Below are positions 1,532-29,114 of a stretch of DNA of 29,664 nucleotides, in pieces. The stretch's first letter is position 1; each line of letters opens with the position of its first letter. This stretch comes from a virus (taxonomy: Duplodnaviria; Heunggongvirae; Uroviricota; Caudoviricetes). The notes beneath the pieces were generated by a model. It searched no databases, had not been told where the DNA came from, and was given only the letters and a program-made list of their open reading frames with translations. Made by a program: the position numbers and the translations under genes. The stretch is taken from the IMG/VR virus record IMGVR_UViG_3300009034_000003; one strand, given 5' to 3'.

Positions 1532-1743
1532 TATTTGTGCTCCTTGTCAAGGTCTTTGAGGCATGAAAGAGCCCAGTCTGTTTCCATAGTAACCGTTCCC
1601 TTGATCGGTGGTCCTATGTCAAGAGTAATGTCTACCTCTATTGTCTCATTTCCTATTCGGATGTCGTGATACATTTGCCCTAGGTCCATTTCTTCATAGC
1701 AGTGATCTAGAAGGCGTATCACATCCTTCTTAGTTATCTTCAT
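1531..1743 (-). CDS. Hypothetical protein
   Basis: 70 aa, GGAGGAGG RBS. Confidence 0.75.
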   Translation of the reverse strand: MKITKKDVIRLLDHCYEEMDLGQMYHDIRIGNETIEVDITLDIGPPIKGTVTMETDWALSCLKDLDKEHK

Positions 1744-13405: not shown

Positions 13406-13451
13406 TACTCCTATTGTTAGATCAGGTGTCAGTTCCTTGGTTCCTAGTAGC

Positions 13452-13510
13452 TAGCTCCTAAGTTCTAGCTCTTAAAGTTCTAGCTGCTAAAGTTCTAGCT
13501 CCTAAAGTTC
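13452..13510. repeat. Tandem repeat, 4 x ~15 bp TAGCTSYTAAAGTTC
   Basis: Units start at 13452 (14 bp), 13466, 13481, 13496; intergenic. Confidence 0.85.
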
Positions 13511-13615
13511 TGGTCCTAGAAGTGCTGAAAACCCTGCCTTTCTTTTCTAGACTCGCGACGGGCTTCAAAAGGTGGAGCTGTCCAGGTCTTAGTATCTAGG
13601 CTCAGGCCCTAGCCG

Positions 13616-24839: not shown

Positions 24840-25122
24840 GTACTATATGTACGGTTACATATATATAGATACTAAGTAACAGGGGTCCAATATATAGGGG
24901 GCCAGGCCCTATATATAGGGTACGGGGGTTATATATATAAGGTTAATATACAAGGGGGCCCATATATATAGGGGCCGGGGGTGTATATATATAGGGCCAA
25001 TATACAGGGGGCCCCGGGGGTCTATATATAGGGGTTATATAGGCTATATATATAGGGTACGACCCCCCGGGGGTATACCTTATCTGCAGCCCCCCTATCC
25101 CCCCGGGGTCACGTGCCGGGGC
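24840..25122. repeat. TA-tract / G-run degenerate repeat region at the strand switch (candidate origin or terminus)
   Basis: About 7 copies of TATATAGG(G); AATATAYARGGGGCC at 24889, 24945, 24999; perfect palindrome CCCTATATATAGGG 24907-24920. Confidence 0.8.
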
Positions 25123-25194: not shown

Positions 25195-25270
25195 CCAGCA
25201 TTCTAGATGTCCATATACCAGCATTCTAGCTCTCCTAGCTTCCCAGCCATCAAGTATCCCAGCATTCTAG
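25195..25270. repeat. Three dispersed CCAGCATTCTAG direct repeats
   Basis: Copies at 25195, 25218, 25259. Confidence 0.75.
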
Positions 25271-25306: not shown

Positions 25307-25358
25307 CCTATACCCTTTTATTTCAAAAGCCTATTTTTTAAGATGTTCATATAATATT
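25307..25358 (+). promoter_or_regulatory. Degenerate promoter cassette copy driving the mini-array
   Basis: CCTATACCC...TTCA-TATAAT (25350-25355); no consensus -35. Confidence 0.5.
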
Positions 25359-25363
25359 AGTGA

Positions 25364-25487
25364 GAGTTATCCAAATGCCTACTGTGAACCAAGACAAAAG
25401 TGTACAGTCAAAAGCCACTTGAGAACCATACACGAGATGCACAAAAGCCATATAATGAACGTGAACCAGGCTGGTACTGCGTAGTTA
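25364..25487 (+). repeat. TIGR-like mini-array (3 units)
   Basis: Same two repeats and 9-nt spacers as 28135-29069; 25371-25430 is 59/60 identical to 28216-28275. Confidence 0.8.
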
Positions 25488-25492
25488 ACCTA

Positions 25493-25543
25493 TATACCCT
25501 CTTTTTGATTTTTGCAAAATGTTCCTTGCGCTCATATAATATA
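25493..25543 (+). promoter_or_regulatory. Sigma70-type promoter
   Basis: TTGCAA 25512-25517, 17-bp spacer, TATAAT 25535-25540. Confidence 0.85.
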
Positions 25544-26992: not shown

Positions 26993-27254
26993 AAGGAGAG
27001 GAACAATAGCGTATAGAGACCGGAAAGAGCTTAAAAAGATGTATGGCGAGCCAGATTGCCCTGCGAGTGCTTTGCACTGGATAGTTGCTATAATCCACGA
27101 TTGGCTTATAAATGATACAATTGAAGCTATACGCGTGATCCTTACAGGAACCCAGGGTCTTATCGGTAGTAACCGAAGTCCTCTGGAGGGTAAGATCAAG
27201 GAAGTGCTAGAGTATCTGGACCTAAGAGGAAAAGGAGACAATGGACATACCTGA
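26979..27254 (+). CDS. Hypothetical protein (start uncertain)
   Basis: 91 aa; overlaps the HNH gene start. Confidence 0.6.
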   Translation: MNITRRRGTIAYRDRKELKKMYGEPDCPASALHWIVAIIHDWLINDTIEAIRVILTGTQGLIGSNRSPLEGKIKEVLEYLDLRGKGDNGHT

Positions 27255-27795
27255 CAATATACAATACCTTTGGTGGATGCTAGAGGAACACGGAGTCACA
27301 AGTAAACAAGTCAAAGTAAGATTGCTGCAGGAACTCAAGCGCTATGACCCAAGCAAACGACCTTATAAGATGAAGTATGATCGTTACTTGGAATCAGGAC
27401 ACTGGCTAAAGTTCAGGATATACATGCTACGCGAGTATCCTGAGTGTCAGTTTTGTGACTGCGAGGAAACTCTCCTTGTCCATCACACTAACTACGATCA
27501 TCTGGGCGAAGAAGACGAATACCGCGATGTGACTGTGCTGTGTAGCGAGTGTCACGAGGCATTCCATACTTTTGCGAACCTCTTTGTGGATAGGAAATAT
27601 AGGGAAAAGTTTCTATATCCACGAGCTGGTTCTTTTCTTGATGGGAATAACAGGTTCAAGTTCGGAAAGCACAAAGGCGAAAGCTTAAGCTATGTGAGAA
27701 GTGTCGATCCCGGCTATGTTGACTGGGTGCACGGTGAGTCAAAATACGAGAGTGATAGACACGCGATCGAAGAACCAGATTATGATGACTACTAG
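27241..27795 (+). CDS. HNH endonuclease with C-terminal FGKHKG...DPGY.xW module
   Basis: CQFC...LLVHH.NY...VTVLCSECHEAFH; FKFGKHKGESL...VDPGYVDW. Confidence 0.85.
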   Translation: MDIPDNIQYLWWMLEEHGVTSKQVKVRLLQELKRYDPSKRPYKMKYDRYLESGHWLKFRIYMLREYPECQFCDCEETLLVHHTNYDHLGEEDEYRDVTVLCSECHEAFHTFANLFVDRKYREKFLYPRAGSFLDGNNRFKFGKHKGESLSYVRSVDPGYVDWVHGESKYESDRHAIEEPDYDDY

Positions 27796-27841
27796 ATGAC
27801 CATGTAATAATATAGCGAACCCTAAACAAAGGAGTTTGCAA

Positions 27842-28138
27842 ATGGAACGCACAGAAGAATGTTCAGAAGTGACATACCAGGCTTTTTGTTTGTTGCAACG
27901 TGTAGCAGAACTCTTGCACATGGAGGAACTGTCCTTGTCTGTAGCAAGCTATATGCTTGGCATTTCGCTGATGGACGCTAAGGGGCTCAGTCTTAATTGG
28001 CGTCTTCTTCCCTGTACTGCACACCCACTTGTAGCACAGTACTGTGGCGAAGATGTGAAGACGTTACTGACGTGGGACGATTGCGATGCATGTGCGAACA
28101 GAGAGGACTGCCCCGCTAGAATAGGAGAACCCCAATAG
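27842..28138 (+). CDS. Cys-rich hypothetical protein directly upstream of the array (98 aa)
   Basis: ATG 27842 with AAAGGAG RBS; C-terminal CxxCxxxxxC; its stop codon abuts the array start. Confidence 0.7.
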   Translation: MERTEECSEVTYQAFCLLQRVAELLHMEELSLSVASYMLGISLMDAKGLSLNWRLLPCTAHPLVAQYCGEDVKTLLTWDDCDACANREDCPARIGEPQ

Positions 28139-29069
28139 AAACCAAAGTTCTCCTGAGAACCAAGCAATATGTGTACAGCCAATCATGATATGAGAACCGT
28201 AATGGTTTTGCATAGCCAAATGTCTACTGTGAACCAAGACAAAAGTGTACAGTCAAAAGCCACTTGAGAACCATAGCTGTAATGCATAGCCAACATATGA
28301 CTGGGAACCAAGACAATAGTGCTTAGCCAAGAATGAGTTGAGAACCGTGCTTGAAATGCACAGCCGATATAAGATAGGGAACCAGGTGTATATTGCGTAG
28401 TCAGAGAACCAATGGGAACTAAACCTTACATGCGTAGCCAAACGGCCATTGAGAACTAGAGGAGCTTTGTGTAGCCAACGTTGAATTGAGAACTAGGTAG
28501 CATATGCGTAGCCATTGCCGCAATGATAACCAAGCAAGAGATGCGCAGCCGTCGTCTACATGAGAACCTAGTCAACCTTGCATCAGTCAAAGCTCTCTTG
28601 GGAACCAAACCTTATATGTGTAGCCGTTGCTCATATGTGAATCAGGAGTTGTTTGCGTAGCCAAAGCTCACCTGAGAACCAGGAGTTGTTTGCATAGCCA
28701 TCATACATTTGTGAGCCGCATCGCAGTTGCATAGCCATATTCAATGTGCGAACCATACTGTTTCTGTGTAGCCATAGACGGAATGAGAACCGTGCCTAGG
28801 TTGCGTAGCCACGTGGACACTGGGAACCAGGTAGATAGTGCGTAGCCATCATCAACACGTGAACCCTACACTAATTGCACAACCAATCTCTAGATGGGAA
28901 CCTAGCCGGCTTTGTATAGCCAGACGTTTGATGAGAACCGTGAACTATCTGATAGCCATCTTACACATAGGAACCATGCCGGCATTGCATAGCCATCTAT
29001 AATTTGTGAACCATACGAGAATTGCGTAGCCGTGATACTCATGAGAACCTTTCTTTCCTTGCCTATACC
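28135..29069 (+). repeat. TIGR-like dual-repeat, dual-spacer array (25 units, 37-bp period)
   Basis: TGDGAACCR boxes at 28154, 28191, 28228 ... 29042, spacing 37 (one 38, one 36), alternating with TGCRTAGCCR; variable 9-nt spacers. Confidence 0.88.
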
Positions 29070-29114
29070 CTCTTTTTGATTTTTGCAAAACGTTCCTTTT
29101 GCTCATATAATATA
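29064..29114 (+). promoter_or_regulatory. Sigma70-type promoter
   Basis: TTGCAA 29083-29088, 17 bp, TATAAT 29106-29111; 48/51 identical to 25493-25543. Confidence 0.85.

What the first reader, a model, noticed from the sequence alone, without database searches (positions are those of the whole stretch)
28135..29069. 25-unit dual-repeat / dual-9-nt-spacer array: TIGR-type guide RNA locus
Seen: strict 37-bp periodicity of two alternating boxes, TGDGAACCR (9 nt) and TGCRTAGCCR (10 nt), each followed by a variable 9-nt segment. Example: tgcatagcca-aatgtctac-tgtgaacca-agacaaaag-tgtacagtca-aaagccact-tgagaacca. Both boxes start TG and end CC(A/G). The repeats are degenerate and non-palindromic, and 37 is not a multiple of 3, so this is neither CRISPR nor a coding repeat. 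Degenerate 10-nt-type boxes at both ends (ATAGAAACCA 28135, TGCCTATACC 29060) bound 25 units. Known: TIGR-Tas arrays in phages and archaeal viruses alternate edge and loop repeats with two ~9-nt spacers. They are processed to ~36-nt guides that direct Nop-domain Tas proteins to DNA without a PAM, one spacer per strand. Inference: this is such an array, with TGCRTAGCCR as edge repeat and TGDGAACCR as loop repeat, encoding about 25 guides.
Basis: partly seen in the sequence, partly recalled or inferred. Interest (0 to 1): 0.95.

Follow-up and report, generated by a model that had tools for sequence, protein, structure and literature searches.

The report
Phage TIGR guide-RNA array, effector elsewhere
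This 935-bp repeat block is a real guide-RNA array of the TIGR-Tas type (an RNA-guided DNA-binding system described in 2025) in a large uncultured phage; it is a new example of a known kind, and its partner protein is not encoded next to it.

Summary
Positions 28135-29069 hold 25 head-to-tail units: 23 of 37 nt, one of 38 and one of 36. Each unit reads edge repeat TGCRTAGCCA, 9-nt spacer, loop repeat TGAGAACCA, 9-nt spacer. Identity at lag 37 is 0.52, against at most 0.32 in 1000 shuffles.

The anatomy matches published dual-repeat TIGR arrays:
- Both repeats run UG...CCA.
- The loop repeat is A-rich.
- The edge repeat carries an extra pair.
- The array begins and ends with truncated edge repeats.

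The validated Salicola phage CGphi29 array gives the same statistical signature. A related phage contig (L133) keeps the array in the same gene context. It has the same repeats, and whole units have been gained, lost and locally reordered.

No Tas protein is encoded in the 29.7-kb window. The rest of the 123-kb contig could not be fetched. Earlier notes of this scan place a nuclease-free TasA and about 150 more units within about 19 kb downstream in the same genome; I could not check this.

One guide, also present in a 3-unit mini-array at 25367-25490, matches the phage's own DNA at 1627-1646 in 17 of 18 positions (empirical p about 0.01).

Verdict: a new member of a known kind. The scan has already reported this system on neighbouring DNA, and similar arrays in other genomes.

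The parts
28135..29069 (+). Main dual-repeat TIGR array. It has 25 units (edge TGCRTAGCCA, spacer A 9 nt, loop TGAGAACCA, spacer B 9 nt) plus a terminal truncated edge repeat. It could give 25 tigRNAs of about 37 nt.
   Evidence: Unit table. Periodicity and column statistics. The motif is confined to the + strand.
28135..28144 (+). Degenerate first edge repeat ATAGAAACCA. It keeps the box C end (CCA), and the stop codon of the upstream ORF lies inside it.
   Evidence: It matches the '5' truncated edge repeat' of Faure et al.. The relative has ATAAAGACCA at the same place.
29060..29069 (+). Terminal, 3'-degenerate edge repeat TGCCTATACC. It keeps the box D end (TGC).
   Evidence: It is identical in the relative L133 at 1436-1445.
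25367..25490 (+). Mini-array of 3 units with the same repeats. Its units 1-2 duplicate units 3-4 of the main array. One edge repeat is 13 nt long (TGCACAAAAGCCA).
   Evidence: Positions 25371-25430 differ from 28216-28275 at 1 of 60 positions.
27785..27819 (+). Promoter-like site ATGACT-17-TAATAT followed by ATAGCGAA. It lies upstream of the 98-aa ORF and the main array and is the probable start of the array transcript.
Evidence: The core CATGTAATAATATA is conserved in L133. Its function is inferred.
27842..28138 (+). A 98-aa Cys-rich ORF with a strong ribosome-binding site. It ends inside the first repeat and is conserved as the array's upstream neighbour in two related contigs. Its function is unknown.
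   Evidence: Homologs at 79% and 74% identity. Synteny. Codon position identities of 83/90/68% indicate a coding constraint. No family found.
29083..29111 (+). Strong sigma-70-type promoter TTGCAA-17-TATAAT directly after the array, driving the downstream genes. No terminator hairpin lies between the array and this promoter.
   Evidence: The region is 91% identical in L133.
25512..25540 (+). The same promoter cassette directly after the mini-array.
1627..1646 (-). Candidate self-target AGACAATAG-AG-GTAGACATT. It reads as spacer B, a 2-nt gap, then the reverse complement of spacer A of main-array unit 3 (17/18 match). It is an 18/18 match if spacer B of unit 5 is used instead. The site lies inside a 70-aa ORF (1531-1743, - strand).
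   Evidence: A hit with at most 1 mismatch occurred in 2 of 200 spacer shuffles. It is a single site, so it is suggestive only.

Best explanation
This is a dual-repeat TIGR (tandem interspaced guide RNA) array of a large uncultured phage.

Inferred mechanism:
- The + strand is transcribed, probably from the promoter-like site at about 27785-27819, together with the small 98-aa ORF.
- The precursor is cut in the middle of each edge repeat (TGCRT|AGCCA).
- This gives about 25 tigRNAs of 37 nt. Each carries a box C end (CCA), spacer A, the loop repeat UGAGAACCA, spacer B and a box D end (UG).
- Each tigRNA loads a dimer of a Nop-domain Tas protein encoded elsewhere in the phage. Earlier notes report a nuclease-free TasA about 20 kb downstream.
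- The complex is directed to an 18-bp DNA site, with one 9-nt spacer pairing with each strand and no PAM.
- With a nuclease-free effector, the expected outcome is RNA-guided binding and transcriptional repression.

What is shown: the array anatomy, its strand bias, and its conservation and unit turnover in a relative.
What is inferred: transcription, processing, the identity of the effector and the outcome at the target.
For: 1. Anatomy and statistics. There are 25 units of 10+9+9+9 nt. Identity at lag 37 is 0.52, against a shuffle maximum of 0.32.

2. Agreement with the published definition. The definition asks for alternating 8-12-nt repeats, 9-nt spacers, both repeats UG...CCA, an A-rich loop repeat, an edge repeat with an extra G-C/G-U/A-U pair, and truncated edge repeats at the array ends.

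3. Pairing of edge position 3 (unit i+1) with position 7 (unit i) holds in 24 of 25 predicted tigRNAs. Both edges with A at position 7 are followed by an edge with T at position 3. This gives A-U across the tigRNA ends, whereas pairing within one repeat would be mismatched.

4. Positive control. The experimentally validated SpTIGR array next to SpTasH in Salicola phage CGphi29 reads AAGACAACCA / AAGCGAGCCA with 8-nt spacers. In the same sliding-window scan it reaches identity 0.56 at lag 36. The window reaches 0.57 at lag 37 in that scan.

5. Related contig L133. The 98-aa ORF homolog (74% identity) is followed by a 16-unit array with the same repeats, the same terminal edge and post-array promoter, and then the homolog of the downstream gene. 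Ten units are orthologous. The first and last units are anchored, two pairs of neighbouring units are swapped in order, and the other units are unique to one or the other contig.

6. The motifs lie on the same strand as all flanking genes, and no motif occurs on the other strand. The gene caller called no gene in the L133 array.

7. TasA and inactive TasR proteins act as RNA-guided repressors (bioRxiv 10.64898/2026.09.09.750476).
Against: No Tas or Nop-domain protein is encoded in the window. Pfam (including PF02371, which detects SpTasH at 2.5e-5, and PF01798), PHROGs, NCBIfam, phmmer with SpTasH and a 121-sequence TasH-family HMM against all six-frame ORFs all gave nothing.

The cognate effector is known only from unverified earlier notes on the next window.

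No rho-independent terminator follows the array.

The unit is 37 nt, whereas Xu et al. 2026 describe a uniform 36-nt guide in dual-repeat systems.

The last base of the loop box is A in only 14 of 23 units.

The covariation signal rests on two events (permutation p 0.07).
Confidence: 0.87

Rival explanations
1. Orphan or decaying TIGR array. The repeats descend from a TIGR array, but this copy is no longer served by a compatible Tas protein and makes no functional guides.
For: No Tas gene lies within 28 kb upstream or 0.6 kb downstream. Several repeats are degenerate, for example TGTACAGTCA, TGCACAACCA and CGTGAACCC, and there are 38-nt and 36-nt units. There is no terminator.
Against: Box D and box C positions are kept in more than 90% of units, while the inner repeat positions drift. 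The array, its boxes and its flanking promoter are kept in a relative whose flanking gene has only 68% identity at third codon positions. Units are duplicated into a separately promoted mini-array. Earlier notes report a TasA in the same contig.
Confidence: 0.06
2. A DNA-level array of protein-binding sites (iteron, centromere or operator-like), in which the two boxes are read as double-stranded DNA by a phage or host protein.
For: Short phased direct repeats can serve as iterons or partition sites. No transcript evidence exists for this array (none was obtainable).
Against: The boxes follow the specific UG...CCA rule of Nop-domain guide RNAs. C-to-T variation at edge position 3 keeps a G-U pair, which matters only in RNA, and both A7 variants are matched by T3 in the next repeat. 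The 18/19-nt spacing with hypervariable 9-nt inserts and whole-unit turnover between relatives is not what binding-site arrays show. The strict single-strand orientation matches the direction of transcription.
Confidence: 0.03
3. A CRISPR array or a coding tandem repeat.
For: It is a regular array of repeats and variable inserts.
Against: The repeats are 9-10 nt and of two kinds, and the inserts are 9 nt. The 37-nt period is not a multiple of 3. No ORF longer than 71 aa crosses the array. There is no Rfam match. The units do not fold on their own.
Confidence: 0.01

Closest known systems
Dual-repeat TIGR arrays of TasR systems (e.g. TaTIGR-TasR, Thermoproteota archaeon; Faure et al. 2025, PMC12045711)
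   Same: Both have alternating edge and loop repeats and 9-nt spacers A and B. Both repeats start UG and end CCA. The loop interior is A-rich and tetraloop-like, and the edge repeat has one additional pair supported by covariation. Truncated edge repeats sit at the array ends (one search compared).
   Different: The unit here is 37 nt, not 36. There are 25 units, whereas 5-15 is most common. No terminator follows. No Tas gene is adjacent, and the effector reported for this genome is a TasA, not a RuvC-bearing TasR.
SpTIGR-TasH of Salicola phage CGphi29 (NC_020844; PDB 9W03 and related)
   Same: Both are phage-borne dual-repeat arrays. The edge repeats AAGCGAGCCA and TGCGTAGCCA agree at 7 of 10 positions, and both loop repeats end in AACCA. 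The periodicity signature is the same.
   Different: SpTIGR has 8-nt spacers and 10+10-nt repeats starting AAG (AG where box D would be UG). It lies directly downstream of its HNH-bearing effector and ends in a terminator hairpin. No relative of SpTasH is encoded in the window.
TIGR-TasA systems (FpTasA of Flavonifractor plautii; MbTasA; PlTasA)
   Same: This is the probable effector class according to earlier notes on the same contig. TasA proteins lack a nuclease, bind DNA through dual-spacer guides and repress transcription.
   Different: The TasA of this phage could not be read here. PlTasA and MbTasA use stem-loop arrays, whereas this array is of the dual-repeat type and its units do not fold alone.
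CRISPR arrays
   Same: Both are tandem arrays of conserved repeats and variable guide segments processed to unit-length guide RNAs. Both show unit turnover between related genomes.
   Different: Here there are two short repeat types, a split 9+9-nt guide that pairs with both DNA strands, no PAM, and no known adaptation genes.

Membership tests
Dual-repeat TIGR array (TIGR-Tas, Faure et al. 2025) | Two distinct alternating repeats of 8-12 nt separated by spacers of about 9 nt, in many tandem units | tested here: met
   There are 25 units with a 10-nt edge, a 9-nt loop and two 9-nt spacers.
Dual-repeat TIGR array (TIGR-Tas, Faure et al. 2025) | Both repeats begin with UG (box D) and end with CCA (box C) | tested here: met
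   Edge repeat: T1 22/23, G2 22/23, C8 21/23, C9 23/23, A10 19/23. Loop repeat: T1 21/23, G2 23/23, C7 22/23, C8 20/23, A9 14/23. The final A of the loop box is the weakest position.
Dual-repeat TIGR array (TIGR-Tas, Faure et al. 2025) | A-rich loop repeat interior, and an edge repeat with an extra pair that covaries (formed between the two ends of a processed tigRNA) | tested here: inconclusive
   The loop interior is AGAA. Edge C3/T3 pairs with G7 or A7 of the preceding repeat in 24/25 units. Two A7 cases are both followed by T3. Permutation p is 0.07.
Dual-repeat TIGR array (TIGR-Tas, Faure et al. 2025) | [quoted passage not shown] | tested here: met
   ATAGAAACCA at 28135 and TGCCTATACC at 29060. 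The same ends occur in L133.
Dual-repeat TIGR array (TIGR-Tas, Faure et al. 2025) | A rho-independent terminator after the array (typical, not obligatory) | tested here: not met
   No terminator-like site was found after 29069. The fold of 29000-29110 is not better than shuffles. A T-rich tract and a promoter follow instead.
Dual-repeat TIGR array (TIGR-Tas, Faure et al. 2025) | A Tas (Nop-domain) gene directly next to the array (the usual arrangement) | tested here: not met
   None of 54 ORFs hits PF02371 or PF01798. NCBIfam and PHROGs gave nothing. phmmer and a TasH-family HMM against 264 six-frame ORFs gave no hit below E = 0.5. Positive control: SpTasH hits PF02371 at 2.5e-5.
Dual-repeat TIGR array (TIGR-Tas, Faure et al. 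2025) | A Tas protein encoded somewhere in the same genome | not testable with these tools
   The 123,331-bp source contig could not be fetched. Earlier notes e1-1677204 and e1-1677196 report a TasA 18.8 kb beyond the window end. I did not verify this.
Dual-repeat TIGR array (TIGR-Tas, Faure et al. 2025) | Transcription and processing into unit-length (about 36-nt) tigRNAs bound by Tas | not testable with these tools
   No sequencing run could be listed for this DNA.
Dual-repeat TIGR array (TIGR-Tas, Faure et al. 2025) | Repeats conserved while the guide units differ between related genomes | tested here: met
   Comparing L133 with the window, repeats and array ends are shared, 10 units are orthologous, and 6 units of L133 and 15 of the window are not shared.
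Stem-loop TIGR array | Variable palindromic stems in place of edge repeats | tested here: not met
   The edge positions hold a conserved non-palindromic repeat. Predicted units have folding energies no better than shuffles.
CRISPR array | A single repeat of 23-55 nt with spacers of similar size | tested here: not met
   There are two repeats of 9-10 nt and spacers of 9 nt.

The most novel reading that the evidence does not exclude
The guide kept in two copies (main-array unit 3 and the first unit of the separately promoted mini-array) directs the phage's TasA to the phage's own DNA at 1627-1646, inside a small gene of the leftward gene block. On this reading, part of this giant TIGR library works as RNA-guided self-regulation of phage gene expression. 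That would be one of the first natural TIGR targets identified. Half-spacers exchanged between units (A of unit 3 with B of unit 5 gives 18/18) would be a way to tune such guides.
Probability: 0.15. Interest if true: 0.75.

Novelty: new member of a known kind. Interest (0 to 1): 0.45.

Why it matters
TIGR-Tas systems were described only in 2025. Their natural targets and the way arrays gain units are still open questions.

This locus adds a well-delimited example with four unusual features:
- It is a 25-unit array lying about 20 kb from the reported effector gene. Tools that look only around tas genes could miss it.
- Its unit is 37 nt rather than the canonical 36 nt.
- It can be compared directly with a relative, which shows gain, loss and reordering of whole units between fixed array ends.
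- One guide has a near-perfect match in the phage's own genome.

It does not change what is known about the system class. The same system has already been reported by this scan on the adjacent window.

Tried and rejected
Recovering the source contig beyond the window:
- No whole genome is held.
- Exact-protein look-ups failed for four window proteins, although the protein collection knows them from a 123,331-bp JGI contig.
- An exact 52-mer was absent from viral contigs, and the related-locus scan of metagenome contigs found nothing.

Looking for the same repeat pair elsewhere:
- The strict three-box pattern gave 0 hits in viral, metagenome and genome contigs.
- The looser two-box pattern gave 131 loci, none with more than two loose matches and none carrying an array, so I read them as chance.

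Similarity to known phages: megablast of the window against the phage collection found no match.

RNA evidence: no sequencing run was listed.

Rfam: no family matched.

Looking for a hidden Tas among the neighbouring genes:
- PDB sequence searches of the 184-aa HNH protein and the 181-aa protein gave nothing relevant.
- Atlas look-ups of the 98-, 262- and 181-aa proteins gave nothing.
- The AlphaFold model of the 181-aa protein was unusable (pLDDT 42). This protein has no relative among 1.8 billion representatives.

The 184-aa HNH protein as a split TasH nuclease: rejected. It has no similarity to SpTasH. It appears to be absent from the position just upstream of the 98-aa ORF in L133, where the called genes are a 77-aa and a partial 95-aa ORF that I did not compare with it.

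More distant relatives (L134-L136, found through the downstream 94-aa protein) carry no periodic array in the fetched DNA.

Composite targets in the window for all other guides and for all A x B combinations are at chance level.

Full report
**Observation**

The region 28135-29069 was read directly and parsed into units. It holds 25 head-to-tail units. Each consists of a 10-nt box (consensus TGCRTAGCCA), a 9-nt variable segment, a 9-nt box (TGAGAACCA) and a second 9-nt variable segment.

Twenty-three units are 37 nt long. The unit at 28579 has an 11-nt first box (38 nt), and the unit at 28950 has a 9-nt first box (36 nt). The first box of the array is degenerate (ATAGAAACCA). A last, half-degenerate box (TGCCTATACC, 29060) closes the array.

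Self-identity is 0.523 at lag 37 and 0.520 at lag 74. In 1000 shuffles the best lag reached 0.292 on average and never more than 0.320. Most box columns carry 1.3-2.0 bits, and most spacer columns are near zero.

The paired-box motif occurs 21-22 times on the + strand, never on the - strand, and nowhere outside this array and a mini-array at 25367-25490. No ORF longer than 71 aa crosses the array, and no Rfam family matches. The only correction is that the period is not perfectly strict.

**What it is**

Faure et al. 2025 (PMC12045711) define dual-repeat TIGR arrays by several features:
- both repeats starting UG (box D) and ending CCA (box C);
- a loop repeat with an A-rich, tetraloop-like interior;
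- an edge repeat with one more pair that covaries and forms between the two ends of a processed guide;
- a 5'-truncated edge repeat at the start of the array and a 3'-truncated one at the end.

All of these are seen here. I tested the extra pair in the register the paper describes, that is position 3 of edge i+1 against position 7 of edge i. It is a standard pair in 24 of 25 predicted guides. The only two edges with A at position 7 (28135, 28876) are each followed by an edge with T at position 3. The other T3 variants give G-U. The permutation p is 0.07, so this is consistent but weak.

As a positive control I fetched Salicola phage CGphi29. I identified SpTasH (L132:14395-15324) by its identity to PDB 9W03 and related entries and read its validated array. 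That array reads AAGACAACCA / AAGCGAGCCA with 8-nt spacers. Its edge repeat agrees with the one here at 7 of 10 positions. In the same scan it gives identity 0.561 at lag 36, where the window gives 0.568 at lag 37. Predicted single units do not fold better than shuffles, as expected for the dual-repeat type and not the stem-loop type.

**Comparative evidence**

The 98-aa ORF that ends in the first repeat has two homologs, at 79% and 74% identity. One lies on a readable contig, L133. In L133 the ORF is followed by a 16-unit array with the same two repeats, the same degenerate first box and an identical terminal box. The same post-array promoter follows (91% identity), then the homolog of the downstream 94-aa gene. 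No gene was called in that array.

Ten L133 units have orthologs in the window: window units 1, 4, 5, 18, 17, 15, 21, 23, 22 and 25, in L133 order. The first and last units are anchored, and two pairs of neighbouring units are swapped. Six L133 units and fifteen window units are not shared.

In the orthologous units the spacers are 89-92% identical and the repeats 83-88%. Third codon positions of the flanking ORF are only 68% identical. This comparison is biased, because orthologs were recognised by spacer similarity. It does show that the variation in the repeats falls on the interior positions and not on the UG/CCA boxes. A conserved frame with exchangeable units is what a guide library should look like.

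**Context**

The window is a gene-dense stretch of small, mostly unknown phage genes; YopX, HNH and excisionase-type HTH hits are the few exceptions. Leftward genes run up to about 24.8 kb and rightward genes start at about 25.4 kb.

A 3-unit mini-array at 25367-25490 follows a TATAAT at 25350. Its first two units copy units 3-4 of the main array, with 1 mismatch in 60 nt. Each array is followed directly by the same strong promoter cassette, TTGCAA-17-TATAAT, at 25512-25540 and 29083-29111. There is no terminator hairpin.

Upstream of the 98-aa ORF lies a promoter-like site, ATGACT-17-TAATAT followed by ATAGCGAA (27785-27819). Its core is conserved in L133. The main array is therefore probably transcribed together with that ORF. 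This is inferred.

**The effector**

No Tas protein is encoded in the window:
- Pfam gave no PF02371 or PF01798 hit among 54 ORFs, although PF02371 detects SpTasH at 2.5e-5.
- PHROGs and NCBIfam gave nothing relevant.
- phmmer with SpTasH, and an HMM of 121 TasH-family proteins, found nothing below E = 0.5 among 264 six-frame ORFs.

The proteins between the two arrays are a membrane-anchored 163-aa protein, a 181-aa ORFan and an HNH endonuclease with an ExoX-like C-terminal motif. None resembles a Tas.

The window comes from a 123,331-bp JGI contig that none of the tools would return. Earlier notes of this scan state that a nuclease-free TasA lies 18.8 kb beyond the window end and that the 18 kb before it are filled with about 150 further TIGR units. 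If so, the array studied here is the upstream edge of a region of about 23 kb of arrays and small genes. I could not verify this and treat it as a lead.

**Mechanism**

The array is most likely transcribed rightward and cut within each edge repeat into 37-nt tigRNAs. These would be loaded on a dimer of the phage's Tas protein, which then binds 18-bp DNA sites with one spacer on each strand. With a TasA, the expected result is transcriptional repression, as shown for MbTasA and inactive TasR proteins.

**Targets**

I searched the window for composite targets in both orders with gaps of 0-2 nt. One site stands out. At 1627-1646 the - strand reads AGACAATAG-AG-GTAGACATT. That is spacer B, a 2-nt gap, then the reverse complement of spacer A of unit 3, matching at 17 of 18 positions. 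It is an 18/18 match if spacer B of unit 5 is used.

By my own reckoning from the paper's cut-site description, this spacer order is the one that yields the 3' overhangs reported for TasR. Gaps of 1-2 bp are tolerated by TasR. A hit with at most 1 mismatch appeared in 2 of 200 spacer shuffles.

The site lies inside a 70-aa ORF of unknown function. The guide concerned is the one duplicated in the mini-array. It is absent from the L133 main array. This is a single, suggestive match in one quarter of the genome, not a demonstrated target.

Half-spacers recur within the array. Four A-A pairs and four B-B pairs differ at 2 or fewer positions, against about one expected, and there are no such A-B pairs.

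**Comparison and verdict**

The locus works like, and by its intrinsic features belongs to, the dual-repeat TIGR arrays. It differs from the typical case in five ways:
- unit length (37 nt against 36 nt);
- size (25 units);
- the lack of a terminator;
- the lack of an adjacent tas gene;
- the promoter cassette that follows each array.

It is a new member of a known kind. This scan has already reported the same system on the neighbouring window, and several similar phage arrays elsewhere. Interest is moderate. The useful extras are the unit-level comparison with a relative and the candidate self-target.

Noticed in passing
window 24890-25110: In the divergent intergenic region between the leftward and rightward gene blocks there is a dense run of alternating TATATATA and GGGGCC/CCCCGGGG blocks. 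Tandem Repeats Finder reports periods of 37, 53 and 54. It could be an origin, a packaging site or another structured DNA element.
   Followed up: no
window 25195-25270: Three exact copies of CCAGCATTCTAG lie within 76 bp, just upstream of the mini-array promoter. Chance gives 0.22 copies, and no shuffle reached 3. It may be an operator or another binding site.
   Followed up: partly
window 25367-25490: A second, 3-unit TIGR mini-array sits behind its own TATAAT. Its units 1-2 copy units 3-4 of the main array (1 mismatch in 60 nt), and one edge repeat carries a 3-nt insertion.
   Followed up: yes
window 27842-28138: A 98-aa Cys-rich ORF ends inside the first repeat and is kept in front of the array in two related contigs. 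No family or fold could be assigned. It could be an array-linked accessory gene or merely a neighbour.
   Followed up: partly
window 27241-27795: A 184-aa HNH endonuclease has an ExoX-like C-terminal motif (Pfam PF20600, 1.5e-8). One of the 54 scanned ORFs, probably this one, gives a weak NCBIfam hit to the IscB family; the scan did not say which ORF. The gene is present upstream of the array in one related contig and apparently absent from that position in L133, so it is probably a mobile homing-type gene.
   Followed up: partly
window 13451-13523: A 15-bp tandem repeat, CTAGCTCCTAAAGTT, occurs in 4.9 copies in the leftward gene block.
   Followed up: no
window 28145-29059: Half-spacers recur with 0-2 differences in other units while their partner spacers differ. 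Examples are GGAGTTGTT twice, AGACAAAAG/AGACAATAG and AACCTTACA/AACCTTATA. They recur only A with A and B with B.
   Followed up: partly
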